A stretch of DNA of 28,995 bases from Thermoproteota archaeon (GTDB taxonomy: Archaea; Korarchaeota; Korarchaeia; B14-G2). Every line of letters begins with the position of its first letter. Position 1 is the stretch's first letter. Under the pieces are notes generated by a model that made no database searches, was not told the origin of the DNA, and saw nothing but the letters and a program-made list of their open reading frames with translations. The DNA lies in assembly GCA_037917675.1 (NCBI GenBank), contig JAVCBW010000012.1, positions 1 to 28,995 of the forward strand. Direction: 5' to 3'. The translations under genes were made by a program, and so were the position numbers. Below are positions 3,148 to 28,979 of this stretch, piece after piece.

Positions 3148-3162
3148 CCTCTGCTCCAGTGG

Positions 3163-3510: not shown

Positions 3511-3563
3511 CGTCCTCAGAGTACACCAGCCTGCTTAAAACCTTAACCTACCTCTAGCAGCCT

Positions 3564-4328
3564 ATGAGGCATATACTTGAGAAGCTAGCTAGAGGAGAGC
3601 TTACAGTAGATGAAGCAGAGAAGATGATCAGAGCTCTCCTACTAGAGGAGGTCAGCGGCCTAGCTCTACTAGACGTCGGCAGAGAGGTCAGGAGGGGGGT
3701 TCCTGAGATAGTCTTAGCAGAGGGGAAGCCTCCTGAAGCCACAGCTAGGATAGCGAGGGCTATACTAGACAGGTGTGGGAGGGTCATAGTCAGCAGAGCA
3801 AGCAGAGAGCACATGGAGGCAGTCAAGAAGGAGATCAAAGACGCCGAGCTAGAGGTGCATGAGCTTGCGAGGATAATAGTTGCTAGGAGAGCCCCCAGAG
3901 AGAAGACAGGCGGGAAGGTAGGTGTGATAACAGCTGGGACATCTGACATACCTATAGCTGAGGAAGCTAAGGTCATAGCTGAGGAGCTAGGCTGTGAAGT
4001 CTATACAGCATATGACGTAGGCGTAGCAGGGGTGCACAGGGCATTCAAGGCTCTGAGAGAGATGATTAGGAGAGACGTAGACGTCATCATAGTAGCTGCA
4101 GGAATGGAGGGAGCTCTACCATCAGTGGTAGCAAGCATGATCGACATACCAGTCATAGGTCTACCAACCTCAGTAGGCTATGGGATGGGAGGTAGAGGAG
4201 AGGCAGCTCTCAAATCCATGCTACAATCCTGCTCTCTCGGTGTAGCAGTAGTCAACATAGATGCTGGCGTAGCAGCTGGAGTCATAGCAGCAATGATAGC
4301 GAACAGAGCAGCCAAGTTCAGGGGATAG
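3564..4328 (+). CDS. larB: LarB-type pyridinium-3,5-biscarboxylic acid mononucleotide synthase (PurE-like NaAD carboxylase/hydrolase)
   Basis: Has a PurE-like core (GKVGVITAGTSDIPIAEEA, VGVAGVHR, IVAAGMEGALPSVVA, GLPTSVGYG) preceded by the LarB-specific N-terminal extension of about 110 aa. Confidence 0.9.
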   Translation: MRHILEKLARGELTVDEAEKMIRALLLEEVSGLALLDVGREVRRGVPEIVLAEGKPPEATARIARAILDRCGRVIVSRASREHMEAVKKEIKDAELEVHELARIIVARRAPREKTGGKVGVITAGTSDIPIAEEAKVIAEELGCEVYTAYDVGVAGVHRAFKALREMIRRDVDVIIVAAGMEGALPSVVASMIDIPVIGLPTSVGYGMGGRGEAALKSMLQSCSLGVAVVNIDAGVAAGVIAAMIANRAAKFRG

Positions 4329-11000: not shown

Positions 11001-12290
11001 ATGCATGCAATCGAAGGTATCTTTCCTGCTATAGCCACCCCCTTTAGTGGAGGAGCTCTAGACATAGAGGCTCTCAGGTCTCTTGTAGAGCATCTGGTTG
11101 AGAAGGATGTGAGTGGTGTGGTTGTAGCTGGGACCACAGGAGAGTTCCCATACCTGAGCATGGAGGAGAGGAGAGCTGCTCTAGAGGCTGCTGTAGATCA
11201 GGTGAATGGGAGGGTGCCTGTCATAGCTGGAGCTGGAGCCTCCTCTACTAGAGAGGCTATAGAGTATGCTAGGCAAGCTGAGGACATTGGAGCTGATGCT
11301 CTGCTTGTTGTCTCACCATACTACTTTAAGCCAAGTGAGAAGGGCGTGTACCAGCACTACATGGAGATCATGGGCAGGATAGACCTGCCTCTGCTAGCAT
11401 ATAACATACCACAGTGCACTGGATACTATATCCCGAGGTCTGTGCTAGAGGACTTAGCTAGCGAGGGGCTGAGTGGAGTAAAGGACAGCAGTGGTAGCCT
11501 ACCATACCTAGCTGAGGTCGCAAGCTATCTCAAGGGGAGAGCTGCAGTGCTCTGTGGCCACGATGAGGTTGTGCTCCCTGCTCTGGTGCTTGGAGCTAGT
11601 GGTGCAATCTTGGCTTCAGCTAACATCATACCTGAGGTCTGGCTTAGAGTCTATAAGGCATTCAAGGAGGGTAAGCTTGAAGAAGCTAGGATGATGCAGG
11701 CTAGGGCTCAGAAGCTGGCTAGGCTGATAGCCAGGTATGGCCCATTGGCTGTAAAGGCTGCTCTGAGAGACCTAGGGCTCCCAGCTGGCAGGTGTAGAGC
11801 TCCTCTGAAGGCTGGTGGCTCACTGCCAAGAGAGGTCAGAGAAGAGATCAGGCTAGAGCTAGCGAAGCTGGGTGCAATCCCCATGGAGCTTCCGCCTGAA
11901 GCTGAAGTCCACATAGAGGTTGAAGCTGGCCTGAAGAGCAGTGAGGTCGGCTACAGGTGGGCTAGGGAGCTAGCTAGGCCTAAGGCCTTCAGGGAAGCTC
12001 TCCTAGCTGTAGCTGAGCCGAACCTGGCTGCTAAGCCTCCGACTCTGATAGTCCCTGAGGTCGATATCAGAAGCTTGAGGCAGGCTAGTATGGTCTATGG
12101 GCCAGTTCAGGCTGCAGTCGCTAGGGCTGTCATAGACTCCATTGGAAGCTCTATCCCACCTGAGGCTTGTGAAAGCCATGTCATAATAGTTAGGGTCAAG
12201 CTGAGCCCGAGCCTAGTGGACAGGAACGCTGTCTACTGGAGCACATACAGAGAGGTGGTGAAGGCATTGAAGGAGGTGAAGTGGAGTTGA
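11001..12290 (+). CDS. DHDPS/NAL-family class I aldolase fused to a truncated Fae-like (formaldehyde-activating enzyme) domain
   Basis: Residues 1-295 carry VVVAGTTGEF, LLAYNIPQCTG and the Schiff-base Lys context SGVKDSSGS. Residues 300-429 (nt ~11898-12287) resemble the central part of Fae (LLAVAEPNLAAKPPTL...YGPVQAAVARAV...IP) but lack the VGEAL N-terminus and the HPF C-terminus. TATA-like gcttttatc lies about 33 nt upstream. Confidence 0.8.
   Translation: MHAIEGIFPAIATPFSGGALDIEALRSLVEHLVEKDVSGVVVAGTTGEFPYLSMEERRAALEAAVDQVNGRVPVIAGAGASSTREAIEYARQAEDIGADALLVVSPYYFKPSEKGVYQHYMEIMGRIDLPLLAYNIPQCTGYYIPRSVLEDLASEGLSGVKDSSGSLPYLAEVASYLKGRAAVLCGHDEVVLPALVLGASGAILASANIIPEVWLRVYKAFKEGKLEEARMMQARAQKLARLIARYGPLAVKAALRDLGLPAGRCRAPLKAGGSLPREVREEIRLELAKLGAIPMELPPEAEVHIEVEAGLKSSEVGYRWARELARPKAFREALLAVAEPNLAAKPPTLIVPEVDIRSLRQASMVYGPVQAAVARAVIDSIGSSIPPEACESHVIIVRVKLSPSLVDRNAVYWSTYREVVKALKEVKWS
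11108..11169 (+). repeat. 62-nt tract identical to 12400-12461 in the downstream paralog
   Basis: The sequence tgtgagtggtgtggttgtagctgggaccacaggagagttcccatacctgagcatggaggaga is present in both aldolase genes at a constant offset of 1292 nt. The flanking positions differ. Confidence 0.9.
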
Positions 12291-13684
12291 AGCTCAGGAT
12301 AGAGGGTGTTCTGTCAGCTATAGTGACGCCTTTCAAGGAGGATGGCAGCCTCAACCTCGAGGCCTTCAGCTCTCTAGTGGAGTGGCAGCTCAAGGCTGGT
12401 GTGAGTGGTGTGGTTGTAGCTGGGACCACAGGAGAGTTCCCATACCTGAGCATGGAGGAGAAGGCTGAGCTCTTCGAGCAGGCTTCAAGCCTCCTGTCAG
12501 GGAGAGGCCTCTTCATAGCTGGCGCCTGTGCCCCCTCGACAAGGGAGGTAATTGAAGTAGCTCACCTAGCAGAGAGGTGTGGAGCTGATGCTCTGCTTGT
12601 CATCTCACCATACTACTTCAAGCCAACTGACAAGGAGATCTATGAGCACTATGAGAGGGTTGCAAGTGAGACTGCTGCTCCAGTCATACTCTATAACATG
12701 CCTAAGCTGACAGGCTATACCATACCATGGTGGGTTGTAGAGGGGCTTGCTGAGCTAGACGACATAGCTGGGATAAAGGACTCTTCTGGTAGCATAGCCT
12801 ACATCTCAACCCTATACGAGAAGGTTAAGGGGGAGATCTCGATACTCTGTGGCAGCGGGGAGGTCGTTGTGGGGGCTCTGGCAGCTGGGGCAGACGGCCT
12901 GATACTTGCTGCAGCAAACGTGCTACCAGAGGAGCTAGCTGAGATATACAGGCTCTTCAAGGAGGGCAAGGTAGCTGAGGCACGAGAGCTCCAGAGTAGT
13001 ATCCAAACTCTGCTGAGGCTCATCGGAAGCTATGGTGCTTCAGCTGTAAAGACGTGTCTGAGAGCTATGGGCTTCAATGTAGGACACACGAGGCCCCCCC
13101 TAATCCGAGGGGGCTCACCTCCATATGATGTCGAGATGGAGCTGCTGAGCAGGCTGGCTAAGCTTGGGAAGGTGAGCTTTAAGCCTACTGCCAGAGAATT
13201 CACTCTACTGGTTGGAGAGGCATTGACAACACCTGGCTCAGTTGACTTGGCTCACATAGACTTAGTGCTAGGGGTGGAGGATGGGCCTGTAGGTGAGGCT
13301 TTCAATGAAGCTCTCAGGGAAGAGAACCCAGCTAGGAGGCCTACTCTACTGGACACTAAGCCTAAGGTAGCTGTGGTCCCGACAACCCCTATGGTCAAGG
13401 AGAGGCATCGCCAGCTTTTCTACCACTATGCTACAAAGGGAGTTGAGATGGCTGTGAGAGAGGCTGCTGAGAGCGGGCTTATCCCAGGGGAGCTAGCTGG
13501 CAAGCTAGTCATGGTAGCTAACGTGTTCGTACACCCTGATGCAACGAACCCTAGGAGAGTGATGATGAACAACTATAAGGCTATGAGAGATGCCTTGATC
13601 AAGGCTCTCACAGGGAGACCTACCCTAAGCGAGCTATCTGCTCTAGGAAAGTCAGCTAGGCACCCGTTCAGGTATGAGCCTTAG
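12281..13684 (+). CDS. DHDPS/NAL-family class I aldolase fused to a full-length Fae-like domain
   Basis: Residues 1-300 carry VVVAGTTGEF, ILYNMPKLTG and IAGIKDSSGS. Residues ~307-467 (nt ~13199-13681) align end to end with Methylobacterium Fae as I recall it (VGEAL, LAHIDLVLG, AF, GLIP, VFVHPDA, NNYKA, ARHPF). The GTG start is preceded by aggaggtga (SD) and overlaps the upstream stop by 10 nt. Confidence 0.85.
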   Translation: MELKLRIEGVLSAIVTPFKEDGSLNLEAFSSLVEWQLKAGVSGVVVAGTTGEFPYLSMEEKAELFEQASSLLSGRGLFIAGACAPSTREVIEVAHLAERCGADALLVISPYYFKPTDKEIYEHYERVASETAAPVILYNMPKLTGYTIPWWVVEGLAELDDIAGIKDSSGSIAYISTLYEKVKGEISILCGSGEVVVGALAAGADGLILAAANVLPEELAEIYRLFKEGKVAEARELQSSIQTLLRLIGSYGASAVKTCLRAMGFNVGHTRPPLIRGGSPPYDVEMELLSRLAKLGKVSFKPTAREFTLLVGEALTTPGSVDLAHIDLVLGVEDGPVGEAFNEALREENPARRPTLLDTKPKVAVVPTTPMVKERHRQLFYHYATKGVEMAVREAAESGLIPGELAGKLVMVANVFVHPDATNPRRVMMNNYKAMRDALIKALTGRPTLSELSALGKSARHPFRYEP

Positions 13685-16106: not shown

Positions 16107-16925
16107 TTGCCCGTCTTCCTGGTTGCCAGCAGAAGAGACCCTGCTGGCTTGAGGATAGCTGAGTGGCTTGCTACACACTATGGCACCAAGATAGGTGAAG
16201 ACACATTCACGCTTAGGCTGAGCTCAGAATGCGTCCTTAAGCTTGTCAGCTGTGACATAGTTTACACCCCCAGCACAGCCATCCCAGCTGGCAGTGAGCT
16301 AGCTGTGTTCCTCTCAAGGCACAGTGGGAGAAGCCCTCCAGTGCTCTCTACCCATGTGACTGGCAACTTCGGTGAAGCTGTCCTCGGAGGCGAGAGCGGT
16401 AGGCTCTCCATAGCTCCAGCTAGCAAGATGAAGCTCTTCCTAATGGAGGCTAGCAGGCAAGCTGAGAGCATAGGATATGAGGCTGCCTTCGAGTGTACAC
16501 ATCATGGCCCCACGCTAGACTGCCCTGTGATGTTTGCTGAAGTGGGAAGCAGGCTTGAAAACTGGACTGACAGGAGAGCTGCCTCAGCTGTAGGTGAGGC
16601 TGTCACCTATGCTCTAGAGGAGAGGAGGAGCTTCAAGACTGCAGTAGCATTTGGAGGCCCCCACATAAACAGGAGGTATACTAGGGTCATGGCTGATGGT
16701 GAGCTTGCGATAGGTCATGCGATGTCAAAGCACTACACCCACTTGATCTCAGAGAGCCTAGTAAAGTACTGTATGGAGCGTACTCTAGAACCTGTCTCAA
16801 GGGCTCTGGTAGACTGGAAGGGGATGAGAGGAGGTGAGAGGAAGAAGCTCCTTGAAGCCCTCTCTAACCTAGGCATACCCTACATGAGGGCATCTGAGCT
16901 TGGTGTCGGGTTTGAAGCTAGGTGA
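16107..16925 (+). CDS. dtdA: Archaeal-type D-aminoacyl-tRNA deacylase (DTD2/DtdA)
   Basis: Has an N-terminal VASRRDPAGLRIAEWL, LSRHSG, FECTHHGP and GGPHINRRYT. The length of about 270 aa is characteristic of DtdA. The start is TTG, preceded by gggagg. Confidence 0.85.
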   Translation: MPVFLVASRRDPAGLRIAEWLATHYGTKIGEDTFTLRLSSECVLKLVSCDIVYTPSTAIPAGSELAVFLSRHSGRSPPVLSTHVTGNFGEAVLGGESGRLSIAPASKMKLFLMEASRQAESIGYEAAFECTHHGPTLDCPVMFAEVGSRLENWTDRRAASAVGEAVTYALEERRSFKTAVAFGGPHINRRYTRVMADGELAIGHAMSKHYTHLISESLVKYCMERTLEPVSRALVDWKGMRGGERKKLLEALSNLGIPYMRASELGVGFEAR

Positions 16926-17253
16926 GGTCAGGACTGAGAGCAGCAAGCCTATAGCATTCTTTGACTCTTCGATTCCGAGGCACATGTTCTTCTCAGTGAA
17001 CAGGAGGCTCAAGATGCTAGGCTACAGGGGTGTGTGGGCTCCTGCCTCACCTGTCGGTGGAGCTGCTAGCTTGGATGATGCTGTAAAGTACTGCTCTAAG
17101 AGAGGCATACCCTTGGTGGTCACCATGAGAAGGAGAGCTCTAGGCTTAAGGGAGCTCCATGGAGTGAAGGTCGTATACCTGGATAAGAGGGCTAGAAGGT
17201 CAGCCAACAGGGTGATAGCTAGGATATTTGAGGTGCTGAGAGATGAGGGCTGA
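16900..17253 (+). CDS. Hypothetical protein
   Basis: A 117-aa ORF that overlaps the dtdA end and the start of the next gene, which is an operon-like arrangement. I recognise no domain. The real start may be ATG 16984. Confidence 0.4.
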   Translation: MVSGLKLGEVRTESSKPIAFFDSSIPRHMFFSVNRRLKMLGYRGVWAPASPVGGAASLDDAVKYCSKRGIPLVVTMRRRALGLRELHGVKVVYLDKRARRSANRVIARIFEVLRDEG

Positions 17254-18946
17254 AGCACTAGCTGCAGTCATCATGCTCTCCTCAATCATGCAGGGCAGCA
17301 GCCTGCTTGGTAAAGCTGAGGTCTCATGTGTCCTGATAGAGAGGATGACCTACTTCAGCAGCTGCTGCTCACCATACTGGCATGCTAGAGCAGTAGTGTT
17401 GAACTCCAGCGGGTATGCTCTTGAAGCTGGTGAAGTCATCCAGCTGATAGTCTACTCTGGTGGCTCCCCCCAGGAGCCTGGGACGCTATGCAGGGTATCA
17501 GGACTCCTCTACTGGCAGGGTGGCTTCAAGCTTGTTGTCACTGCTGCTGAGGGATACTTCACGCCTCTGGGGGCAGCTGGAGAGCCTGAAGTAGCCTTGT
17601 CAGTGTCGAGAAGCCAGGCTGCCATAGGAGAGAGCATCGGAGTCGAGTTCTCAGTAGATGTAGCTCCGGCCCAAATAGCTTTGACAGCCTACTATCCAAG
17701 TGGAGAGAGCGAGGTGCTTGCTGAAGGCTGGGTTACACCAGGCTACAGGAGGAAGCTTGAGCTCTATCTACCTGATCCAGGGTCATATACCATAGTCCTA
17801 GCTGCTAGAAGCCCAGCTGGAAGGACATATGCCACCTCTAGGGTGGTCTATGTACCTGAGGAGGCTGGGGAAGCCTCCCTGCACATCAGCGTCCTAGACT
17901 ATGAGTCAGGTAGCCCTATAGATGGAGCTCTGGTGTACGTGAACAGCTCTCTCATAGGCAAGACATCTAGAGGAGCGATAGAGGTCAGAGGGTTGAGTAC
18001 TGGCATAGCTGACGTCTCTGTCTCGAAGCCAGGCTATGTAGCCTGCAGCATGCTTGTCGAGGTCAGAAGGGGATCTAATGAGGTCACCATAGCTCTGAGG
18101 AGAGCTCCCTTAAAGGCTCAGCTCACTGTTGAAGCTGATAGGCTCGAGGTCAAGGTTGGAGAGAGCTTCGAGCTCAGGGTCAGGATTGAGGTCAGCAGGG
18201 AGGCCTCCGTGCAGCTTACAGTTTTCAGCTCACCATCTCTCTCAGTGGGATCCATGGAGTTCCCTCTGGTCGTCAGGGGGGCTGAGGAGGTCAAGCTGAG
18301 AGCTAGAGCCATCAGGGCTGGGGTGTGGGCGATAAGAGCTGCAGCCAGGATCTCAGCTGGATCTGTGGCCACATACATAGAGAATCACACGATTGTGAGG
18401 GTTTCCGAGGCTGAGGAGGCTGCTGAACCTGCAGCATGCCTCTCTGCGAAGTCCATCAGGATATACGTCAGAGGAGAGGACGCTATCGCAGTGCTGTCAG
18501 CTACAGCTACACTAGAGGCGCCTGAAGCTGCCAGTGAGGCAGCCAGGGCCTTCAAGGAGGTCCTCAGGCTCCATGAGCTGGAAGACATCGAGTCTCATGT
18601 GGAGAAGGCTGGCGGCTCCCCTGAGGCCATCTGCACTGGTGTTTTGAAGCCTATCAGGGAGGGTGAAGGAGTTTTCACAGTCATCCTCACAGACCTAGCT
18701 GAGGCTGGTGTGCTACAGGTGGTCTTCGAGCTTCCTAGCAACCTGAGCGTGCTCAGAGCTCCAAGGGGGTCTAGAGTCGTTGAGTTCAATGAGACTACAG
18801 TCATATATGCTGCTGCTAGCGGCATCATTGAGGTTCAGTATGCAGTTGAGGCTGGAGGAGAAGGCAGGAGCTTAAGCCTGCTGCCTATAGTAGCTGTGGC
18901 AGCTGCTCTAGCTGTGGCTGCTCTCGCTGCTAGGAGGCTTCTCTAG
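17243..18946 (+). CDS. Secreted, C-terminally membrane-anchored surface protein with a CarboxypepD_reg-like and Ig-like beta-sandwich domains
   Basis: Has an N-terminal signal-like MRAEALAAVIMLSSIMQGSSLLG. The segment ISVLDYESGSPIDGALVYVNSSLIGKTSRGAIEVRGLSTGIADVSVSKPGYV is typical of a carboxypeptidase-regulatory-like fold. The C-terminal TM segment LLPIVAVAAALAVAALAA is followed by RRLL. Confidence 0.65.
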   Translation: MRAEALAAVIMLSSIMQGSSLLGKAEVSCVLIERMTYFSSCCSPYWHARAVVLNSSGYALEAGEVIQLIVYSGGSPQEPGTLCRVSGLLYWQGGFKLVVTAAEGYFTPLGAAGEPEVALSVSRSQAAIGESIGVEFSVDVAPAQIALTAYYPSGESEVLAEGWVTPGYRRKLELYLPDPGSYTIVLAARSPAGRTYATSRVVYVPEEAGEASLHISVLDYESGSPIDGALVYVNSSLIGKTSRGAIEVRGLSTGIADVSVSKPGYVACSMLVEVRRGSNEVTIALRRAPLKAQLTVEADRLEVKVGESFELRVRIEVSREASVQLTVFSSPSLSVGSMEFPLVVRGAEEVKLRARAIRAGVWAIRAAARISAGSVATYIENHTIVRVSEAEEAAEPAACLSAKSIRIYVRGEDAIAVLSATATLEAPEAASEAARAFKEVLRLHELEDIESHVEKAGGSPEAICTGVLKPIREGEGVFTVILTDLAEAGVLQVVFELPSNLSVLRAPRGSRVVEFNETTVIYAAASGIIEVQYAVEAGGEGRSLSLLPIVAVAAALAVAALAARRLL

Positions 18947-22770: not shown

Positions 22771-23565
22771 ATGAGGCTAGCTGATGCACACTGCCATCTA
22801 CTGGACTCAGCCTTCTCAGCTGACCTAGCAGAGGTTATTGAGAGAGCTAGGAGAGCTGGTGTAGTCTACATGGTAAGCTCTACTCTCAGCATAGCTGAGG
22901 CCATGAAGCATGCCAGCATGGCTGACAGCCTCATGGAGGCTGGTGTCTTCTGGAGCATCGGACTGGATCCACGCCTGTATCCTCTAGAGGCTGAGGGTGT
23001 CGAGGAGCTCGCCAGGAGGTTTTCACATAAGATAGCTGCCATAGGGGAGGTGGGGCTAGACTTCAAGGCTGCTAGGGGGATGGAGGAGAGGGCTCTTCAG
23101 AGGAGAGTCTTCTCAGACTTCATAAGCCTAGCTCTAGAGCTAGGGAAGCCTATTGTAGTACACTCCAGGTGGTCTCAGAGTGCTGTGCTAGACTTGCTTG
23201 AGGAGCATAGAGCTGACTTAGCTCTGCTACATGCCTATACTGGGAGCTCTAGAGAAGTCGAGAGGGCAGCTAAGCTAGGCTACATGATCTCAGTCTCGAC
23301 TTCTGTCACCAGGCATGCTAGTACCCATAGAGTAGCTGCTGAAGCACCTCTAGAGTGCATTGTGCTAGAGTCAGACTCCCCTGCGCTAGCTCCTGTAGCT
23401 GGAGAGAGGAATGAGCCTGCCAACATAGCTCTGGCTGCAGCTGAGGTGGCTAGGATAAGGAGGGTAGAGGCTACCGTCGTCTCTGAAGCTGCCTTCGAGA
23501 ACACAGTCAGCTTCTACTCGCTTCCAACGAGCCTGCTGAGCTCTTCAAGAGCCCTAGACACCTGA
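22771..23565 (+). CDS. tatD: TatD family metal-dependent hydrolase
   Basis: Motifs are ADAHCHL, IGEVGLD, VVHSR, LHAY and ESDSP. TATA-like ggtatttaag lies about 25 nt upstream. Confidence 0.9.
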   Translation: MRLADAHCHLLDSAFSADLAEVIERARRAGVVYMVSSTLSIAEAMKHASMADSLMEAGVFWSIGLDPRLYPLEAEGVEELARRFSHKIAAIGEVGLDFKAARGMEERALQRRVFSDFISLALELGKPIVVHSRWSQSAVLDLLEEHRADLALLHAYTGSSREVERAAKLGYMISVSTSVTRHASTHRVAAEAPLECIVLESDSPALAPVAGERNEPANIALAAAEVARIRRVEATVVSEAAFENTVSFYSLPTSLLSSSRALDT

Positions 23566-24086
23566 TGAATGGGCTTCTCCCCGAGAGCTAGCCCGACAGC
23601 AGCGCCATCCTCCATGAGATATATGAAGCCTCCTGAGAACTCTGCTAGAAGCCACCCCTCTCCTCTCTTCACCTCAGTCAGCTCTCTCAGCTCCCTGCCA
23701 TGAGCTTTCTCCAGCCTCAGCTCAACCTCAGTATACCCTCTTATCTGGCATGCTCCTCCTAGCGGGAGAAGGGTGAACTTGAATACTCCAGCTGAGTAGA
23801 CTGGAGCTCTCAGCCCAGCTAGGTGCTCAGCTACCCTCCTGTATCTTGAGGTAGCCTTCAGCAGCCAGGTGTAAAGAGGTGCATCCGTCAGGCTCTCAAG
23901 AGCCTCTGAAGCTCTAGCTACGAGGTCCTCATCTCCACAGAGGCTTGCTGCTCTAGCTGCATTAGCTAGGCAGGAGACCTTAATCCCCCTGTCCTCAGCT
24001 TCAGCTGCAGCTTCCATGAAGAGCTCAGCTGCCCTCCTAAAGTCCAAAGCCCATTCAGCACAGTAGGCTAGCTTGACCTTCCTCAT
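23514..24086 (-). CDS. Hypothetical cytoplasmic protein (helical N-terminal half, beta-rich C-terminal half)
   Basis: A 190-aa ORF with an ATG start. On the minus strand, TATA-like ttctaaatataagg lies about 20-25 nt upstream, overlapping the stop of the preceding gene. It has no TM segment and no domain I recognise. It has a 52-nt convergent overlap with tatD. Confidence 0.55.
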   Translation of the reverse strand: MRKVKLAYCAEWALDFRRAAELFMEAAAEAEDRGIKVSCLANAARAASLCGDEDLVARASEALESLTDAPLYTWLLKATSRYRRVAEHLAGLRAPVYSAGVFKFTLLPLGGACQIRGYTEVELRLEKAHGRELRELTEVKRGEGWLLAEFSGGFIYLMEDGAAVGLALGEKPIHQVSRALEELSRLVGSE

Positions 24087-24114: not shown

Positions 24115-25113
24115 TTAGAAGCTGAGCTTCAGCTCCTCCTCAAGCCTGAAGCTGCTTCCCTCATACCTGACATGCCCTCTCTCAACCCAGCTCCTAAAGT
24201 ACACGAAGACCCCTGTCCTCCATGCTCTCCCAGCGTACTCGACGCCTGTAAGCCCTCCTCCAGCGAATACCTTAGATAGGGGGCTCCTATCACAGGCCCT
24301 CCTCTCCGAGACCTCTATCTCGACAAAGACCAGCTTAGTCACGCGGGTAGCTGGCCCCAAGCCAAGGTAATCTTCGTAATACCTATGGTGGTACCTGACC
24401 TGAACTGTGACAGAGTACCTAACCTTCAAGCTGGTTGCTGTAGTAGGCCATGGCACTCTTCTCAGCTCCTCTCTCAGCAGCCTGCAATAGAGCTCAGAGT
24501 ACCTATAGGCTATCACTCTAGCTCCATCCCTACGCCCATAGTCTAGCCTAGCCCTGATAGCCTTCTCAGCTGCAGCTCTAGCAGCCTCTGACATGTGGTA
24601 TAGCAGGTATATCCTAGCTGGGTGAGCTGCCCTTATGGCTGTCTGGAGGCTAGCCCATGCTACTGAGGCTTCTAGGCGAGCTTTAAACCACCCACTTATA
24701 TAGACTCCACCTAGCTGCCCAGCTGCATCAATGGCCTTCAGCTGCTGAGTGTCCAAGACCTCCCCGTGGTAGGGCTGGGCTCTGACATCCACGCTGATCT
24801 GACTCTTCACAGAGAGGCCAGAGAGCCACCTAGCATACTTCATGCTCCACTCCATGGTAGGGATCTCAGAGAGCTCATGGTATGGGTCTAAGCCTAGTGA
24901 TGCTATCTCAGCTATCTTGCTGTCAACCCAGCTCCTCACATAGATAAGTAGAGAGACTTGAGAAGCCTCCATCTCACACCATAGCAGAGATATCTCTGAG
25001 AGCCTCCTATTCCTCTCACCATAGAACCTGTATGGAGCTGGGCTCCAAGCTAGCATGGTGAGGGCAGCTACGAGAACTGCTACAGCTAGGATCACTCCTC
25101 TCCTAGCATCCAC
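24115..25113 (-). CDS. N-terminally anchored extracytoplasmic protein, function unknown (class III signal-like RRG|VILAV)
   Basis: The N-terminus is MDARRGVILAVAVLVAALTMLAW, followed by about 300 aa rich in W, Y and R. The GTG start shares one nucleotide with the upstream stop (TAGTG). Confidence 0.6.
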   Translation of the reverse strand: MDARRGVILAVAVLVAALTMLAWSPAPYRFYGERNRRLSEISLLWCEMEASQVSLLIYVRSWVDSKIAEIASLGLDPYHELSEIPTMEWSMKYARWLSGLSVKSQISVDVRAQPYHGEVLDTQQLKAIDAAGQLGGVYISGWFKARLEASVAWASLQTAIRAAHPARIYLLYHMSEAARAAAEKAIRARLDYGRRDGARVIAYRYSELYCRLLREELRRVPWPTTATSLKVRYSVTVQVRYHHRYYEDYLGLGPATRVTKLVFVEIEVSERRACDRSPLSKVFAGGGLTGVEYAGRAWRTGVFVYFRSWVERGHVRYEGSSFRLEEELKLSF

Positions 25114-25481
25114 TACACACCAGCTCCAATCCTCAACTTGAGCTCTAGGGTAGCTCCATAGCAGACGAACAAGGCTCTAGCTTCACCATAGACTTCTCCA
25201 GCCCACCCTGCTCTACCTGCTCCAAGCTCTACTCTCCCCCCATAGGATTCATGGATTACCTGGGCTCCATTCTCCCCTGAGAGAGCGGCCCATATGCTTC
25301 GAAGAGCTTCTCCACTCCAGCTAGCTTCTACCACGGCTCTAGCTGCCTTAAAGGACCCTAATACGACAGCCTCATCAAAGCTCCTAGTGGCATTTGCTCT
25401 CACAGCTAAGGCAGCTAGAGCAACCGTAGCAACCAGGATGCAGTCTAAGATGGCTAAGCTGACTCCTCTCAAGGGAACCAC
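25113..25481 (-). CDS. Small pilin-like protein candidate (class III signal-like LRG|VSLAIL)
   Basis: A GTG start gives (M)VPLRGVSLAILDCILVATVALAALAV. This is a short basic n-region, then R-G, then a hydrophobic stretch of about 20 aa, as in archaeal type IV pilin precursors. The length is 122 aa. Confidence 0.55.
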   Translation of the reverse strand: MVPLRGVSLAILDCILVATVALAALAVRANATRSFDEAVVLGSFKAARAVVEASWSGEALRSIWAALSGENGAQVIHESYGGRVELGAGRAGWAGEVYGEARALFVCYGATLELKLRIGAGV

Positions 25482-25606
25482 CAGAGCTCTCTAGTCAAGT
25501 TGACTGCAGCCACCCTACTAGGCTCCACATCCAGCATGGCTATGAGGGCTATAGTGAACAACAGGAAGGCGATAAAGGCCTCAACCACATCCTCCAACAA
25601 AGACAC
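25469..25606 (-). CDS. Candidate 45-aa single-TM micro-protein (not in the ORF track)
   Basis: A GTG start gives (M)SLLEDVVEAFIAFLLFTIALIAMLDVEPSRVAAVNLTRELWWFP. It overlaps the upstream gene end by 26 nt and the downstream GTG start by 13 nt. This fills what would otherwise be the only gap in the overlapping operon. Confidence 0.3.
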   Translation of the reverse strand: MSLLEDVVEAFIAFLLFTIALIAMLDVEPSRVAAVNLTRELWWFP

Positions 25607-26018
25607 CTCTGCTAGATGGCTCTAACACCACTATGCTGCCAGCAGGCAGCTCAGCAGCACCCGTAACATAGACTCCACAGCTAACTGCAACCCTATGCTC
25701 ACAGAGTCTAGGTGGAAAGCTGCTCCAGTCGACTCCATCATATAAGACTTCAACGATACCTCCAGCTATCCTCACAGCATAGCTAAAGCCTCCAGCTAAA
25801 GAGATCTCACTAGGCTCTGGAAGCCTATACTCTACAGAGACTCTAGTTGAGTTCACAAGCCTCAGGGTTAGAGCTAGGTCCTCAGCTAGCTCGAGTGCAA
25901 ACCTCCTCCTCATCTCAGCTGAGACAGCGATGCCAAGTGATACAGAGGCTGTCAGCATGAAGACGCCTAGAGCCAGGTAAGCTGCCTTCACAAGGTCAGC
26001 CACCATCAACCACCTCAA
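25581..26018 (-). CDS. N-terminally anchored small protein, function unknown
   Basis: The N-terminus is MRWLMVADLVKAAYLALGVFMLTASVSLGIAV, followed by a beta-rich domain containing Cys. It overlaps the upstream gene by 23 nt. Confidence 0.5.
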   Translation of the reverse strand: MRWLMVADLVKAAYLALGVFMLTASVSLGIAVSAEMRRRFALELAEDLALTLRLVNSTRVSVEYRLPEPSEISLAGGFSYAVRIAGGIVEVLYDGVDWSSFPPRLCEHRVAVSCGVYVTGAAELPAGSIVVLEPSSRGVFVGGCG

Positions 26019-26391
26019 ACCCTACATTGACTCCCAGATCAGATCTCTCAGCCCTAATCTTCAAGAGCCCCTCTGGAAAGAAGCTTGGTGCCCTAACTGG
26101 GATGGGGTAGTAGTAGGCTACTGCCTGGCCACCTAGCTTAAAGACCAAGATGGTCTCTAGGCCACACCTAGACTCCACCTCGACACCAGGGCAGTAGACA
26201 ATCTTCACAGCACACCCACCATAGAGCACCGAGCATATGCTTGAGTCTACTTCACAAGAGAACTCAAGCAGAGCTCTTCTCTCACGGGCCTCAAGCAGCC
26301 TCTTGAACCCGAGGCTCAGGTCTTCTCCTAGAGCAGCTAAGAGAGCTAAGCTAGCTAAGAGCATGAGGGCCTGAGCTATGATCCTGCTCAA
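25996..26391 (-). CDS. N-terminally anchored Cys-rich small protein, function unknown
   Basis: The N-terminus is (TTG)MSRIIAQALMLLASLALLAALG, followed by a domain with 6 Cys. An alternative start is ATG 26364. It is the first gene of the minus-strand operon. Confidence 0.5.
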   Translation of the reverse strand: MSRIIAQALMLLASLALLAALGEDLSLGFKRLLEARERRALLEFSCEVDSSICSVLYGGCAVKIVYCPGVEVESRCGLETILVFKLGGQAVAYYYPIPVRAPSFFPEGLLKIRAERSDLGVNVGFEVVDGG

Positions 26392-26435
26392 GCATACCCC
26401 AAGGTATAAGGGACAGAACAGTATAACTTACCAGC

Positions 26436-27476
26436 ATGAAGCTCAGAGACAGAGACTCAGTAGTCCTATACAGCGGTGTGATAATGAGAGTGCTAGGCTA
26501 CACCCACCCTCCATTAGGCTGGGTGTGTGAGCCAGAGTATACTCCGCCTAGCGTCTTCAAGTCGAGGAACCCAAGATCTCCAAGAGGATATCCCAAGGTA
26601 ACCTACCATAAGCTCTATGGAAGAGAGCCTATAGAGCTTGTTGAAAGGAACCCTGAGCTCACAGTGGTACACCCACACCTCAACACGAGGGTTCCTGGAG
26701 CACCTGCATACCTCATCAAGGAAGCTAGGAAGCCTGAGGAGTCTCTGAGGAGGCTGATGCCAGCATGTGGAGACGAGCTCACAAGAGAGCTCAAGAAGAT
26801 AGTAGAGCTCATAGAAGACCACACTCAGATACATCTAGAGGACCTGGGTGTATTCGGGTCGATCCAGCATGGCTTCCACCACCCAAGGCTATCAGACATA
26901 GACCTGACAGTCATAGGGTCAAGGAATGCTAGGGAGCTAGCTGAGTTCCTCGAGGAAGCCTATAGGGATCCAGCTACCCCCCTAGAGCAGGAGTACAGAG
27001 CGCGGCTACGCTACTATGCCAGCAAGCCATACTGGAGCACCTTCCTGACGCCGAGAGAGCACCTATGGCACCAGCTGAGGAAGCCATACTATGCAGTCTA
27101 TACCACATGGAGAGAGGTAAAAGTAGAGTTCCACCCTGTGAAGGCTTGGAGTGAGATAAGGGGAGAATGCCTCCAGATAAGGAGGATAGGGGAAGCTGAG
27201 GCGAAGCTAGAGGTCATAGACGACTCAGAGTCCATATACATACCGTCAACATGGCTTGTGGAGCCAGTGGAGGGGCCGCCAGTAGAGAAGGTAGTCTCAT
27301 ACATAGAAGACTTCAAGATGCAGGCTAAAGCAGGTGAAACAATGCTAACAGCAGGAGTACTTGAGGAAGTAAAGTCTCCAGCAGGAAGCTACCTCCAGAT
27401 CACAATCACACAGAACCCCCACCTACATGCTCATGGAATAAAGGTGGTGAAGGGATGTATAGAGATGGAGATATAG
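26436..27476 (+). CDS. Pol-beta-superfamily nucleotidyltransferase with N-terminal beta domain and C-terminal OB-like domain (COG1665-like, function unknown), paralog A
   Basis: Has the NTase signature FGSIQHGFHHPRLSDIDLTV (G-S-x10-S-D-I-D). The N-terminal motif VLGYTHPP is shared with paralog B. The C-terminal 100 aa is beta-rich. The assignment to COG1665 is from memory. Confidence 0.75.
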   Translation: MKLRDRDSVVLYSGVIMRVLGYTHPPLGWVCEPEYTPPSVFKSRNPRSPRGYPKVTYHKLYGREPIELVERNPELTVVHPHLNTRVPGAPAYLIKEARKPEESLRRLMPACGDELTRELKKIVELIEDHTQIHLEDLGVFGSIQHGFHHPRLSDIDLTVIGSRNARELAEFLEEAYRDPATPLEQEYRARLRYYASKPYWSTFLTPREHLWHQLRKPYYAVYTTWREVKVEFHPVKAWSEIRGECLQIRRIGEAEAKLEVIDDSESIYIPSTWLVEPVEGPPVEKVVSYIEDFKMQAKAGETMLTAGVLEEVKSPAGSYLQITITQNPHLHAHGIKVVKGCIEMEI

Positions 27477-28429
27477 TAGTAACCAGAGACAACCTCGTGT
27501 TCACAGTGCTAGGCTACACTCATCCTCCATCTAGAGTGATAGCTATCCTAAAGTACATACCTGAGGAGCTAAAGCACCTCTTCCCAGGAAGGTATGAGGA
27601 GGCTAGGTGGAAGCTGGCAGAGACAACTCTGCTCAGGCAGGTGGATGCTCTGGCTCCAGGAGGCTACATGAGGGCGCTCAGAGCGCTAAGAGAGCACCTC
27701 CCAGCCTACACCTACTACTGCCCATACCTCAACAAGCTACTCATAGCTGTACCTACATCGAGAATAGAGCTCCACATAACACCACAGGAAGGCAGGCTTC
27801 TCCTAGAGGGGAAGAAGAGGAGAGATCCCCTAGAGCAGAAGGCTATAGGCCTCATTCAGCTCCTAGAGAGGGAGGCAAAGCTGCCAGAGCACACGGTAGG
27901 TCTAAGAGGGTCCATAGCCCTACAGATGCATACACCAAGCTCAGACATAGATCTGACAGTAGAGGGGGCAGAGAACTATGTTAGAGCAGTAAAGGCAGCA
28001 CTCACCTTGGAGGAAAGAGGAGTTCTCAAGGTCTCTAGAGCAAGCTGGATTGAAAAGCGGAGGCTAAACCGCGGGACATACAGGGGAGCCAGGTTCGTAG
28101 TCAATGCAGTGAAGCCACTACACGAGATAGCAGAGAGGTATGGAGAGAAGCGCTACAGGCAAGTAGCTAGGATCAGAGGCACATGTGAGGTCACAGACAG
28201 CAGGCTATCCCACTACAGGCCTGCAGCATACAGGATACATGCAGCAACAAGCCCAAGCCCAGAATACCTGACATCATGGAGTGGAGAGCACAGAAGCTTA
28301 TTCCAAGAGGGGGAGCAGGTAGAGTTCAAGGGGACACTAGAGCTGGTCTCAGATAAGAGTGGAGTATACTACCAGGTGGTAGTTGGGACAGCACCAGGAG
28401 ACTACCTGAAGCCAAAAATAGAGGATTAG
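27455..28429 (+). CDS. Pol-beta-superfamily nucleotidyltransferase with N-terminal beta domain and C-terminal OB-like domain, paralog B
   Basis: Has the NTase signature RGSIALQMHTPSSDIDLTV and an N-terminal VLGYTHPP. It overlaps paralog A by 22 nt. It has the same three-part layout as A, but overall identity to A is low. Confidence 0.75.
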   Translation: MYRDGDIVVTRDNLVFTVLGYTHPPSRVIAILKYIPEELKHLFPGRYEEARWKLAETTLLRQVDALAPGGYMRALRALREHLPAYTYYCPYLNKLLIAVPTSRIELHITPQEGRLLLEGKKRRDPLEQKAIGLIQLLEREAKLPEHTVGLRGSIALQMHTPSSDIDLTVEGAENYVRAVKAALTLEERGVLKVSRASWIEKRRLNRGTYRGARFVVNAVKPLHEIAERYGEKRYRQVARIRGTCEVTDSRLSHYRPAAYRIHAATSPSPEYLTSWSGEHRSLFQEGEQVEFKGTLELVSDKSGVYYQVVVGTAPGDYLKPKIED

Positions 28430-28430
28430 G

Positions 28431-28979
28431 CTATGGGTACACCAGCTCTATGATGTCTGCTGGGTCAGCTTTCCCATTCCTATTCCTGTCGACCCAGTGG
28501 ATTATGTAGACTCCAGCTGGCTTCTCTCTATACTTACAACTGCTTACCCACAATGCTCCAGCTGCAGTCCCAAACCTAGAGATCCCCTGGATGAAGTAGA
28601 TGAGCCTGCCATCCTGCTCATACCCCCCTATCACAGCCCAGTCCTCTTTCCCAAACATGTCATATGTCATCTTGTATTCCCTGCCAGCATAGACCAGCTT
28701 TATCCCATCAGCCTCCTTCACAAACTCTATTCCAAGCAGCCCATTGACCTCAGCAGCCTCAGGTACAGCAATAGGCCCCCCCATAATGAACCAGTGCCTG
28801 TCAGGAGAAGCCTTACCTGCTGTAATCCTCATTCCAGAGAGCTCAATCAGCCCCTTCACCTTATAGTAGTGTACTGCATCGTCTCTTACGACGTAGTCTG
28901 GGGGCCTGAAGGGCGCACCAATCAGCCCCTTCACCTTATAGTAGTGTACTGCATCTATCTCATTAGATACATACACCAT
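28431..28979 (-). CDS. Hypothetical protein with duplicated DAVHYYKVKGLI motif and a Ca-binding-like D-x-N-x-N-G-x-x-D loop
   Basis: A 182-aa ORF starting from ATG 28979. The reading frame stays open to the window edge (28995), so the true N-terminus may lie outside the window. The C-terminal VDRNRNGKADPADI resembles an EF-hand or dockerin loop. Confidence 0.5.
   Translation of the reverse strand: MVYVSNEIDAVHYYKVKGLIGAPFRPPDYVVRDDAVHYYKVKGLIELSGMRITAGKASPDRHWFIMGGPIAVPEAAEVNGLLGIEFVKEADGIKLVYAGREYKMTYDMFGKEDWAVIGGYEQDGRLIYFIQGISRFGTAAGALWVSSCKYREKPAGVYIIHWVDRNRNGKADPADIIELVYP
28846..28955. repeat. Perfect 35-bp direct repeat (two copies, 75-nt period) inside a CDS
   Basis: The sequence atcagccccttcaccttatagtagtgtactgcatc occurs at 28846-28880 and again at 28921-28955. 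The 40 nt between the copies are unrelated. Confidence 0.9.

What the first reader, a model, noticed from the sequence alone, without database searches (positions are those of the whole stretch)
24115..26391. Overlapping operon of small, Cys-rich, N-terminally anchored proteins with no recognisable domains (possible pilin-like or novel surface module)
Five ORFs on the minus strand (131 aa, 145 aa, a 45-aa candidate, 122 aa, 332 aa) are chained by start/stop overlaps of 23, 26, 13 and 1 nt, which implies tight translational coupling. Each begins with a single hydrophobic helix. Two (LRG|VSLAIL... and RRG|VILAV...) fit the archaeal class III, PibD-type prepilin motif [KR]-G-[hydrophobic], and a third has K-A-A. 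The ectodomains are beta-rich and contain Cys. I could not match them to any family. The window contains no assembly ATPase (PilB/FlaI-like), no platform protein (PilC/FlaJ-like) and no peptidase. This could therefore be an orphan minor-pilin set or a previously undescribed envelope complex. A 190-aa cytoplasmic protein (23514-24086) follows with its own TATA-like box.
Basis: partly seen in the sequence, partly recalled or inferred. Interest (0 to 1): 0.65.

Follow-up and report, generated by a model that had tools for sequence, protein, structure and literature searches.

The report
Detached pilin-like operon of Korarchaeota
Five tightly packed small membrane-anchored genes are the pilin-like subunit set of a little-known archaeal type IV pilus-like machine whose motor genes lie elsewhere in the genome, so this is a new variant of a known kind of system, not a new kind.

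Summary
Five overlapping minus-strand ORFs (A 131, B 145, C 45, D 122, E 332 aa) each start with one hydrophobic helix. All are under purifying selection (dN/dS 0.17-0.26) and none matches Pfam, NCBIfam or PDB sequences.

The family is very rare: a full HMMER scan of 1.84 billion proteins found five clusters. In distant archaea the same five genes, in the same order, directly follow a FlaI/GspE-type ATPase, a TadC-like platform protein and a minimal A24 prepilin peptidase. In other Korarchaeota the set converges on such an operon.

An AlphaFold model of A (pLDDT 88) has the pilin layout: helix 2-56 plus a six-stranded beta domain. No solved pilin matches it. D and E carry a conserved [KR]-[GA] cleavage motif. 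A and C do not, and B's K-A is not conserved.

The window has no motor genes. Its sister MAG (locus tags DRN96_) encodes a motor-only locus elsewhere: ATPase, two TadC halves and an A24-like peptidase; a Flp-like pilin beside the ATPase matches a DRN96 protein only at the 90% cluster level. So this is a detached pilin-like module served in trans, probably a minor-pilin priming or tip set. "Cys-rich" is incidental, and the 190-aa gene is not part of the module. Moderate interest.

The parts
25996..26391 (-). Gene A (131 aa, TTG start). First gene of the module. Pilin-shaped protein: N-terminal helix 2-56, then six beta strands.
25581..26018 (-). Gene B (145 aa as the maximal ORF; more likely 141 aa from ATG 26006). 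N-terminal hydrophobic helix with a conserved Y-L-x-x-G motif.
25469..25606 (-). Gene C (45 aa as the maximal ORF; more likely 42-43 aa from TTG 25597/25600). Little more than one hydrophobic helix, followed by a conserved N-x-T sequon.
   Evidence: dN/dS 0.17. A small gene at the same position in L001/L002, L004, L008 and L003, plus unannotated copies in L005 and L016. The sequence match on its own is weak (E 0.46 to L004). The C-family HMM finds the L016 copy at 3.4e-15. GAGGTG lies 3-6 nt upstream.
25113..25481 (-). Gene D (122 aa as the maximal ORF; more likely 119 aa from TTG 25472, giving M-R-G|VSLAILD). Class III-type signal motif with a conserved Asp at +7.
24115..25113 (-). Gene E (332 aa, GTG start). 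Largest and last gene, and the signature protein of the module. R-R-G|VILAV class III-type motif.
   Evidence: dN/dS 0.26. Only 5 clusters found among 1.84e9 proteins. Alignment A2 has invariant P25, R37, Y58, R60, D64, G74, P77, H164-P165-x-R167 and D275. It is always the last gene of the pilin-like block next to the T4P-type motor. E-like genes occur in L009/L019/L020.
26392..26435 (.). 44-bp divergent intergenic region holding the likely promoter of the A-E operon. It has TATA-like GTTATAC at 26421-26427 and CTTATACC at 26403-26410.
   Evidence: Read directly from the sequence. A has no SD-like motif, consistent with a leaderless first cistron. Archaeal promoter function is inferred, not tested.

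Best explanation
The five genes encode the pilin-like subunit module (A-B-C-D-E) of an uncharacterised archaeal type IV filament system (T4P/Tad-like). Each protein inserts into the membrane through its N-terminal hydrophobic helix. D and E, which carry a conserved [KR]-[GA] motif, are cleaved by an A24 prepilin peptidase. A FlaI/GspE-type ATPase working with a TadC-like platform protein then assembles the subunits through their N-terminal helices.

In this lineage (Korarchaeota-related) the module is detached from its motor and served in trans. The sister MAG encodes, at another locus, an ATPase, two TadC halves and a minimal A24 peptidase; a small Flp-like pilin sits beside the ATPase on that contig and matches a DRN96 protein only at the 90% cluster level.

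By analogy with the minor-pilin sets of bacterial type IV filaments, A-E most likely forms the priming or tip complex of a filament whose bulk is the Flp-like pilin. The 332-aa E would be the large distal subunit.

Shown: gene reality, family membership, conserved order, linkage to the motor genes in other genomes, separation of the two modules in the sister MAG, the pilin-like layout of A, and the conserved cleavage-type motifs in D and E.

Inferred: cleavage, assembly, the minor-versus-major pilin roles, and the biological function (adhesion or other).
For: Context. E homologues P0004 and P0005 are the last gene of operons reading T2SSE ATPase > 434-453 aa membrane protein > 127-142 aa membrane protein > several small genes > E. 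L016 repeats this. L008 and L003 have split-platform versions.

Homology. A, B and D each match only their positional counterparts. The C family is recovered by HMM and position.

Partner genes. The ATPase hits Pfam T2SSE at 6e-20. Its best PDB relatives are archaeal GspE 2OAP (1.6e-29) and FlaI (1.7e-27). The platform protein has two repeats and a weak T2SSF hit. In the small polytopic protein, the only invariant columns are D...G-x-x-x-G-D. It has Pfam Peptidase_A24 hits (7e-5; precomputed hits in L019/L020).

Structure. The A model has pLDDT 88, helix 2-56 and six strands.

Signals. E has [KR]-[GA] before the helix in 5 of 7 homologues and D in 4 of 6.

Motor in trans. L017 carries ATPase, TadC halves, A24-like and Flp-like genes with no A-E. 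Its proteins are exact matches to DRN96_01445, DRN96_01460 and DRN96_01470. The A and D orthologues of L002 are DRN96_03420 and DRN96_03430.

Korarchaeota-type loci. In L019, L020 and L009 the motor operon converges on an A-like, C-like and E-like set.

Literature. Pilin sets without an ATPase or TadC in the locus, and ATPase/TadC modules that serve different pilin sets, are documented for Thermoproteales (PMC4858521).
Against: No A-E protein matches any known pilin family in Pfam or NCBIfam or any PDB sequence. Foldseek finds no solved pilin, or anything else significant, for the A model (best E 0.5, TM below 0.3).

A and C lack a [KR]-[GA] motif, and B's is not conserved. The five families show no detectable paralogy with each other (hhalign probabilities below 13%). 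E could not be modelled (pLDDT 36.7).

The motor has not been found for the window's own genome, only for the sister MAG. A MAG is a bin, so its contigs are not proven to come from one genome.

The minor-pilin role rests on analogy and on the presence of a separate Flp-like pilin. That pilin matches Pfam Flp_Fap only weakly (E 0.02-0.04).
Confidence: 0.78

Rival explanations
1. A-E builds its own filament, with A as the major pilin. A is the first gene, has the best-conserved core and has a canonical lollipop model. B-E would be accessory subunits. The Flp-like pilin would belong to a different filament made by the same motor.
For: In T2SS and Com operons the major subunit is encoded first and the largest minor subunit last (textbook knowledge). 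Here the order is A ... E. A has the strongest cross-lineage conservation and a confident pilin-like model. L005, L016, L008 and L003 show no Flp-like gene in the DNA held, and L004 has only a weak one.
Against: A lacks a [KR]-[GA] cleavage motif in every lineage; its N-termini read MNE, MDN or MSR followed directly by the helix. A dedicated small pilin with a strongly conserved DERG|V leader sits next to the ATPase in L009-L012 and L017-L020. Major pilins are often stand-alone genes in archaea (PMC4858521).
Confidence: 0.2
2. The system is not an adhesive pilus. It is a short pseudopilus or piston, like bacterial T2SS or Com machines, used for protein secretion or DNA uptake. A-E would be the five pseudopilins.
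For: The gene plan is ATPase > platform > peptidase > five small N-terminally anchored proteins with the largest last. That mirrors gspE-F-(O)-G-H-I-J-K and comGA-GB-GC..GG (textbook knowledge). In L004 the operon lies next to a HerA/VirB4/TraG-like ATPase cluster and a DNA methyltransferase.
Against: The Glu5 typical of bacterial (pseudo)pilins is absent from the predicted mature N-termini of D and E. No secretin or other conduit is involved or needed in archaea. No substrate genes or DNA-handling genes are consistently linked; the L004 neighbourhood is not repeated in L005, L008, L003, L016 or L019. The resemblance is an analogy only.
Confidence: 0.12
3. In this lineage the detached A-E set is a decaying remnant, or a membrane complex that no longer uses any type IV motor.
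For: The window and the 21-kb sister locus contain no ATPase, platform or peptidase. The set evolves faster than neighbouring housekeeping genes: 63-75% amino-acid identity against 82-94%.
Against: All five genes are intact in three independent assemblies, with dN/dS 0.17-0.26. The overlaps and SD-like motifs are preserved. The sister MAG retains a complete motor-only locus of the matching ATPase clade.
Confidence: 0.05

Closest known systems
Archaeal type IV pilus systems of the TACK group (clade 4 of Makarova, Koonin & Albers 2016, PMC4858521), including pilin-only loci of Vulcanisaeta and Caldivirga
   Same: Both have a FlaI/GspE-family ATPase plus a TadC-like protein, which may be fused or split into two genes. 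Both have an A24 peptidase, several fast-evolving small secreted proteins with class III-type N-termini, and frequent MinD/FleN-like and TFIIB-like neighbours. In both, pilin sets can sit in loci without the ATPase or TadC and be served in trans.
   Different: None of the five families matches a known pilin family in Pfam or NCBIfam. The fixed five-gene order A-B-C-D-E, with a ~45-aa member and a ~330-aa terminal member, is not described in the parts of that paper I read. The associated peptidases are very small (127-164 aa). I could not place the ATPase in that paper's tree or test arCOG membership.
Tad/Flp pili (Flp major pilin, TadE/TadF pseudopilins, CpaF/TadA ATPase, TadB/TadC, TadV peptidase)
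   Same: Both have a very small major-pilin candidate with a G| cleavage site followed by a polar-then-hydrophobic helix ('DERG|VTQTVEQALL'). It gives weak hits, and only to Pfam Flp_Fap. The platform is split into two genes. There is a dedicated minimal aspartyl peptidase and a ParA/MinD-like ATPase. CpaF is among the solved relatives of the ATPase (5e-15).
   Different: The ATPase is closer to archaeal GspE and FlaI than to CpaF. A-E give no TadE/TadF/TadG hits. The Flp_Fap hits are below the family threshold. No secretin-type or outer-membrane parts are present.
Minor (pseudo)pilin sets of bacterial type IV filaments (GspH-I-J-K with GspG; FimU-PilV-W-X; ComGC-GG)
   Same: Both are sets of about five N-terminally anchored subunits encoded together, next to the ATPase, platform and peptidase genes, with the largest subunit last. 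This suggests a priming or tip complex. A has the long-helix-plus-beta-sheet layout.
   Different: There is no sequence or structural match. There is no Glu5. The five families are not detectably related to one another. The comparison is by analogy only.
Archaellum accessory proteins FlaF/FlaG
   Same: These are also small monotopic membrane proteins with an N-terminal helix and a beta-rich domain, encoded with a FlaI/FlaJ motor.
   Different: There is no match to archaellin or FlaF/FlaG families in Pfam. No FlaB, FlaH or FlaX genes occur in any of the related loci. The gene set is different.

Membership tests
Type IV filament pilin/pseudopilin module (archaeal T4P sense) | Class III signal peptide: a short charged leader ending in [KR]-[GA], followed by a ~20-residue hydrophobic helix | tested here: inconclusive
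   Met for E (RRG|VILAV; 5 of 7 homologues have [KR]-[GA], the other two have N-A). Largely met for D (LRG|VSLAILD; 4 of 6 have [KR]-[GA], one has R-S, one has Q-A-K-A). Not met for A and C, whose helix starts after 2-6 residues with no G/A. B's K-A is not conserved. FlaFind and PilFind were not available.
Type IV filament pilin/pseudopilin module (archaeal T4P sense) | Fold: an extended N-terminal alpha-helix followed by a beta-rich globular domain | tested here: met
   Met for A only. AlphaFold2 with a 7-sequence alignment gave pLDDT 88, pTM 0.72, helix 2-56 and strands 60-127. The E model was unusable (pLDDT 36.7).
Type IV filament pilin/pseudopilin module (archaeal T4P sense) | Structural similarity to a solved pilin | tested here: not met
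   Foldseek of the A model against PDB: best E 0.5, TM below 0.3, and no pilin among the hits. BFVD likewise gave nothing. The AlphaFold DB was not available.
Type IV filament pilin/pseudopilin module (archaeal T4P sense) | Genomic linkage to a PilB/FlaI/GspE-family ATPase and a PilC/TadC/FlaJ-family platform protein | tested here: met
   Not met in the window. Met in homologous loci L004, L005, L016 and L008, where the genes share an operon. The operons are convergent in L009, L019 and L020. The motor sits at a separate locus in the same MAG as the sister A-E set.
Type IV filament pilin/pseudopilin module (archaeal T4P sense) | A cognate A24 aspartyl prepilin peptidase | tested here: met
   None is in the window. 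In related loci there are small polytopic proteins whose only invariant residues are D...G-x-x-x-G-D. They give Pfam Peptidase_A24 hits (7e-5 and 0.031; precomputed hits in L019/L020). The sister MAG's copy is DRN96_01470. A profile search against PDB sequences found no FlaK match.
Type IV filament pilin/pseudopilin module (archaeal T4P sense) | Sequence membership in a described pilin family (Pfam Class_IIIsignal, Pilin_N, TadE, Flp_Fap, archaellin; NCBIfam) | tested here: not met
   The five window proteins give no Pfam families and only sub-threshold, unrelated NCBIfam matches at E up to 1. Homologues from other loci tested for A, B, D and E (no C homologue was scanned) give no pilin family at E up to 10. 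arCOG membership could not be tested.
Type IV filament pilin/pseudopilin module (archaeal T4P sense) | Leader cleavage and incorporation into a filament | not testable with these tools
   This needs biochemistry, or cryo-EM or cryo-ET on an enrichment or a heterologous host.
Bacterial T2SS/Com-type pseudopilins | Conserved Glu at position +5 of the mature N-terminus, and a G|F/M-type cleavage site | tested here: not met
   The predicted mature N-termini are VSLAI.. (D) and VILAV.. (E), with no Glu5. The C family has E or Q at +3 after an acidic residue.
Tad/Flp system | Flp-type major pilin (Pfam Flp_Fap) and TadE/F pseudopilins | tested here: inconclusive
   Flp-like small pilins lie next to the motor in L009, L019, L020, L017 and L018. 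They hit Flp_Fap only weakly (E 0.019-0.036, below the gathering score). None is in the window. A-E give no TadE hit.

The most novel reading that the evidence does not exclude
A-E may not be a set of pilus accessories. It could be the five-subunit pseudopilus of an archaeal machine built on the T2SS/Com plan (ATPase, platform, minimal peptidase, five pseudopilins with a large cap). Such a machine would act as a piston for protein secretion or DNA uptake in Korarchaeota and a few other uncultured archaea. In some lineages the subunit module is exchanged or relocated independently of the motor.
Probability: 0.12. Interest if true: 0.75.

Novelty: new variant of a known kind. Interest (0 to 1): 0.45.

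Why it matters
It gives five 'hypothetical protein' families a concrete, testable role as subunits of a type IV filament machine. It also defines a conserved eight-to-ten-gene system in uncultured archaea, Korarchaeota included: a FlaI-like ATPase, a TadC-like platform protein, a minimal A24 peptidase, a Flp-like pilin in some lineages, and A-E.

The locus is a clean natural example of modular evolution. The same subunit module is fused to its motor in some lineages, convergent with it in others, and fully detached here. That supports the earlier proposal that archaeal motors serve pilin sets encoded in trans.

The beta-domain of A has no solved structural relative, and the associated peptidases are unusually small. 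Both are worthwhile structural targets. None of this overturns current views, because archaeal T4P diversity is already known to be very large.

Tried and rejected
1. Pfam, NCBIfam and PDB-sequence searches gave nothing for A-E, whether run with single sequences or with profiles.

2. AlphaFold2 of E with a 3-sequence alignment gave pLDDT 36.7 and was discarded. No fold search was run on it.

It worked after the orthologues were registered through the cluster lookup.

4. Foldseek of the A model against PDB and BFVD gave no significant match.

5. hhalign among the A, B, C, D, E and Flp-like profiles showed no paralogy. I therefore do not claim that the five families are diverged copies of one pilin.

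6. The idea that L009 (same ENA sample as L002) is the sister organism's motor locus was rejected. Its tetranucleotide correlation to L002 is only 0.72 and its GC content differs. It belongs to another Korarchaeota lineage.

7. The 190-aa downstream gene and the two upstream nucleotidyltransferase genes were considered as parts of the module and rejected. They accompany A-E only in the sister genomes, not in L003, L004, L005, L008, L016 or L019.

8. A link to conjugation or Ced-like DNA transfer was considered because of the HerA/VirB4-like cluster beside the operon in L004. That neighbourhood is not repeated elsewhere.

9. A profile of the peptidase-like family against PDB sequences did not retrieve FlaK. 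The A24 assignment rests on the two-Asp motif and the Pfam hits.

10. The promoter/terminator scan tool was not used, because it models bacterial sigma-70 sites.
Full report
**Observation.**
- A: 25996-26391 (131 aa)
- B: 25581-26018 (145 aa)
- C: 25469-25606 (45 aa)
- D: 25113-25481 (122 aa)
- E: 24115-25113 (332 aa)

Maximal-ORF overlaps are 23, 26, 13 and 1 nt. Each protein has a single Kyte-Doolittle hydrophobic segment, at its N-terminus. The rest of the window is ordinary archaeal chromosome: RadA, TatD, QRPTase, an EF-1alpha-like GTPase, MoaA/MoaC, ABC transporters and LarC/E/B-like genes. It holds no PilB/FlaI-type ATPase, PilC/TadC/FlaJ-type platform protein or A24 peptidase. Custom HMMs for the peptidase-like and Flp-like families also find nothing in the window.

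**Are they real genes?** Yes. The same five genes, in the same order and between the same neighbours, occur in a Guaymas Basin MAG contig and in a 90-kb ENA contig. The neighbours are two nucleotidyltransferase genes on one side and a 190-aa gene, TatD and RadA on the other. The MAG contig is L001 (QMWA01000027, 'Thermoproteota archaeon B14_G2') and the ENA contig is L002. NCBI names for the L002 proteins read 'hypothetical protein DRN96_03420/03430 [Candidatus Korarchaeota archaeon]'.

Against L001, dN/dS is 0.24 (A), 0.25 (B), 0.17 (C, the 45-aa ORF), 0.22 (D) and 0.26 (E), with dS about 0.8-1.1. Amino-acid identity is 63-75%, against 82-94% for neighbouring housekeeping genes. The set is therefore selected but fast-evolving.

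SD-like GAGGTG/GGTG motifs lie 3-7 nt upstream of internal start codons of B (ATG 26006), C (TTG 25597/25600) and D (TTG 25472). These starts agree with the gene calls in L002 (146, 42 and 119 aa) and give overlaps of 11, 17-20 and 4 nt. A has no SD-like motif and lies 33 nt downstream of a TATA-like GTTATAC. This fits one polycistronic unit with a leaderless first cistron. That reading is an inference.

**No known family.** Pfam and NCBIfam give nothing at E up to 1. Profile searches against all PDB chain sequences give nothing for A, D or E.

**Rarity and the key context.** A word-indexed search of 5.8 billion proteins found only two relatives of E, at about 70% identity. A full HMMER scan of 1.84 billion cluster representatives, using the E profile, found five clusters in all. 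Four of them are distant: P0004 (2e-20), P0005 (4e-20), P0006 (1e-11) and P0007 (1e-10).

Their genomic contexts are decisive:
- L004: T2SSE ATPase (570 aa) > 453-aa membrane protein > 127 > 121 > 105 > 46 > 130 > E homologue (327 aa).
- L005: T2SSE ATPase (577 aa) > 434 > 142 > 133 > 138 > [unannotated small ORF] > 126 > E homologue (324 aa).
- L016: repeats the L005 plan.
- L008 and L003: the same block, with the large membrane protein split into two genes.

**Partner genes.**
- ATPase: Pfam T2SSE at 6e-20. Its profile is closest to the archaeal GspE of Archaeoglobus (2OAP, 1.6e-29) and to FlaI (1.7e-27), then to CpaF (5e-15).
- Large membrane protein: two internal repeats that are separate genes in L008, L003 and L009, and a weak T2SSF hit (0.035). 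This is the PilC/TadB-TadC/FlaJ plan.
- Small polytopic protein (127-215 aa): its only invariant columns are D35 and G89-x-x-x-G93-D94, the two-aspartate signature of A24 prepilin peptidases. It has Pfam Peptidase_A24 hits at 7e-5 and 0.031, plus precomputed hits in L019/L020.

**Pilin-likeness of the subunits.** With a 7-sequence alignment, AlphaFold2 models A at mean pLDDT 88 and pTM 0.72. The model is one continuous helix over residues 2-56 followed by six beta strands (60-127). That is the classic type IV pilin layout. Foldseek finds no significant match in PDB or BFVD (best E 0.5 and 0.15, TM below 0.3), so the beta-domain is not recognisably that of any solved pilin. E could not be modelled (pLDDT 36.7 with three near-identical sequences).

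The N-terminal motifs differ by family:
- E has [KR]-[GA] immediately before the helix in 5 of 7 members: RRG, RRG, RRG, FRG and LRA. The other two have N-A.
- D has it in 4 of 6 (LRG, LRG, VKA, KKG); one has R-S and one has Q-A-K-A. An Asp at +7 is invariant.
- B has K-A only in the window (R-T, L-N, L-T, L-N, F-N elsewhere), but carries a conserved Y-L-x-x-G.
- A and C start their helix after two to six residues, with no G/A.

Most of A's five Cys are not conserved, so 'Cys-rich' is incidental. The five families show no detectable similarity to one another (hhalign probabilities below 13%).

**Where is the motor in this lineage?** A search with the operon ATPases defines a distinct clade, P0023-P0040, scoring at least 242 bits. 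Scores then drop to 192 bits and then to 92 or less. Many members are named Korarchaeota.

One member, P0025, lies on contig L017: ATPase (555 aa) > 204 > 219 (TadC halves) > 164 aa (A24-like; family HMM 1.6e-4). A divergent 84-aa gene lies beside it, and there is no A-E set. L017's proteins are exact matches to NCBI proteins of the DRN96 MAG:
- the A24-like protein is DRN96_01470;
- the DHH protein is DRN96_01460;
- the Hjc protein is DRN96_01445;
- the SHMT is RLG52898.1;
- for the 84-aa pilin, only a 76-aa member of the same 90% cluster carries a DRN96 tag (DRN96_09235).

This is the same MAG that carries the A-E orthologues DRN96_03420 and DRN96_03430. So in the window's sister genome the subunit module and the motor module are encoded at separate loci.

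L017 and its relative L018 have tetranucleotide correlations of 0.96 and 0.94 with the window. The window's correlation with L001/L002 is 0.955-0.959, and all other loci score 0.75 or less. L018 may therefore represent the window's own lineage, but this is unproven. A MAG is a bin, so co-residence in one genome is strongly suggested and not proven.

**A second arrangement and a major-pilin candidate.** In other Korarchaeota (L009, L019, L020) the motor operon reads: ParA/MinD-like > three small genes > ATPase > two TadC halves > A24 peptidase. It converges on a minus-strand operon of 71 > 140 > 89 > 42 > 91 > 307 > 81 aa > a TFIIB-like gene.

The 96/97-aa gene directly upstream of the ATPase, and the 84-aa gene beside the L017/L018 ATPase, form a tight family. 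Its leader reads '...(D/E)ERG|V(T/N)x(T/I)V(E/S)(Q/E)ALL'. Its only Pfam similarity is a weak hit to Flp_Fap (0.019-0.036, below threshold). L004 has a weak relative (0.0018), and the window and L001/L002 have none. This is the best candidate for the major pilin.

**Mechanism (inferred).** A-E are inserted into the membrane by their N-terminal helices. D and E, and perhaps others, are trimmed by the A24 peptidase. The FlaI-like ATPase and TadC-like platform extract the subunits and stack them through their helices.

Three observations suggest that A-E is a minor-pilin priming or tip complex, with E as the large distal subunit. A dedicated Flp-like pilin accompanies the motor. A-E are five dissimilar single-copy proteins in a fixed order with the largest last. 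And this resembles GspH-K, FimU-PilVWX and ComGD-GG.

I put about 0.78 on 'pilin-like module of a type IV filament system served in trans'. Within that, I put roughly 0.5-0.6 on the minor-pilin role. Rivals are A as the major pilin of its own filament (0.2), a T2SS/Com-like pseudopilus for secretion or DNA uptake (0.12), and a decaying or motor-independent remnant (0.05, contradicted by purifying selection and the retained motor).

**Comparison with what is known.** The closest framework is the clade-4 (TACK) archaeal T4P systems catalogued by Makarova, Koonin and Albers (PMC4858521). That paper documents several matching features:
- extreme diversity and fast evolution of Thermoproteales pilins;
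- pilin loci lacking the ATPase and TadC (Vulcanisaeta, Caldivirga);
- split TadC genes;
- MinD/FleN and TFIIB neighbours;
- ATPases with Cys-rich N-terminal domains (the L004 and L005 ATPases have such regions);
- evidence that one ATPase/TadC module can serve different pilin sets.

The present module fits that framework. Its five protein families are unannotated, with no Pfam, NCBIfam or PDB counterpart. The fixed A-E order, with a ~45-aa and a ~330-aa member, and the 127-164-aa peptidases are not described in the sections I read. I could not test arCOG membership or place the ATPase in the published tree. I therefore rate it a new variant of a known kind, of moderate interest.

Noticed in passing
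window 23514-24086 (-): A 190-aa soluble protein lies directly downstream of E, with a TATA-like AAATATAA box overlapping E's stop codon. It has no Pfam or NCBIfam hit. It is conserved in L001/L002 (83% identity, dN/dS 0.14) but absent next to A-E in all other lineages, so it is not part of the module. Its function is unknown.
   Followed up: partly
window 26436-27476 (+) and 27455-28429 (+): Two tandem, overlapping paralogous genes (346 and 324 aa) lie divergent from gene A. Each has a central nucleotidyltransferase (Pol-beta-like) domain and a shared N-terminal '...V(L)GYTHPP' region. They are conserved in L001/L002 only.
   Followed up: partly
window 28431-28979 (-): A 182-aa ORF with an internal near-exact duplication of 'DAVHYYKVKGLI' near its N-terminus. 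It has no family hit.
   Followed up: no
window 11001-12290 (+) and 12281-13684 (+): Two tandem genes each fuse a DHDPS-family domain to a formaldehyde-activating-enzyme (Fae) domain. This is an unusual duplicated fusion.
   Followed up: no
window 1167-4328 (+): A cluster with a nickel-insertion (LarC-like) gene, a PP-loop ATPase (LarE-like) gene and an AIR-carboxylase-like (LarB-like) gene. This suggests synthesis of the nickel-pincer cofactor.
   Followed up: no
window 16900-18946 (+): A 117-aa gene overlaps a 567-aa gene that has a weak PEGA domain hit and a faint S-layer-like NCBIfam hit. Both are conserved in L002 (113 and 569 aa). They may encode a surface protein pair.
   Followed up: no
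L009 15281, L010 15019, L011 5074 (locus ends): Three independent assemblies of the Korarchaeota-type locus all break at the same place inside the pilin-like operon, just upstream of the D-like and E-like genes. This may reflect strain-level hypervariability of these genes.
   Followed up: no
L004 1369-5163 (-) and 11995-12750 (+): Beside the complete operon in L004 lies a divergent cluster: an 869-aa DUF87/HerA/TraG-like ATPase with four small membrane proteins. An N6/N4 DNA methyltransferase lies downstream. This could be a conjugative or Ced-like DNA-transfer element, or an integrated mobile element. It is not seen in the other loci.
   Followed up: partly
L005 about 9495-9621; L016 14178-14327: The ~45-aa C-family gene is not annotated in these records. 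It is present in frame and, in L016, recovered by the family HMM (3.4e-15). Small members of this module are being missed by gene callers.
   Followed up: yes
L004 8374-8757; L005 8272-8700; L017 12907-13401; L019 12467-12853: The A24-type peptidase-like proteins of this system are only 127-164 aa, much shorter than characterised PibD and FlaK, yet they keep both catalytic-Asp motifs. L008 encodes two of them in tandem (215 and 160 aa).
   Followed up: partly
L017 8439-9605 (-); L018 8425-9594 (-): A conserved 388/389-aa soluble protein with no family hit is co-oriented with the Flp-like pilin gene, divergent from the motor operon. It may be a cytoplasmic accessory or regulatory component.
   Followed up: no
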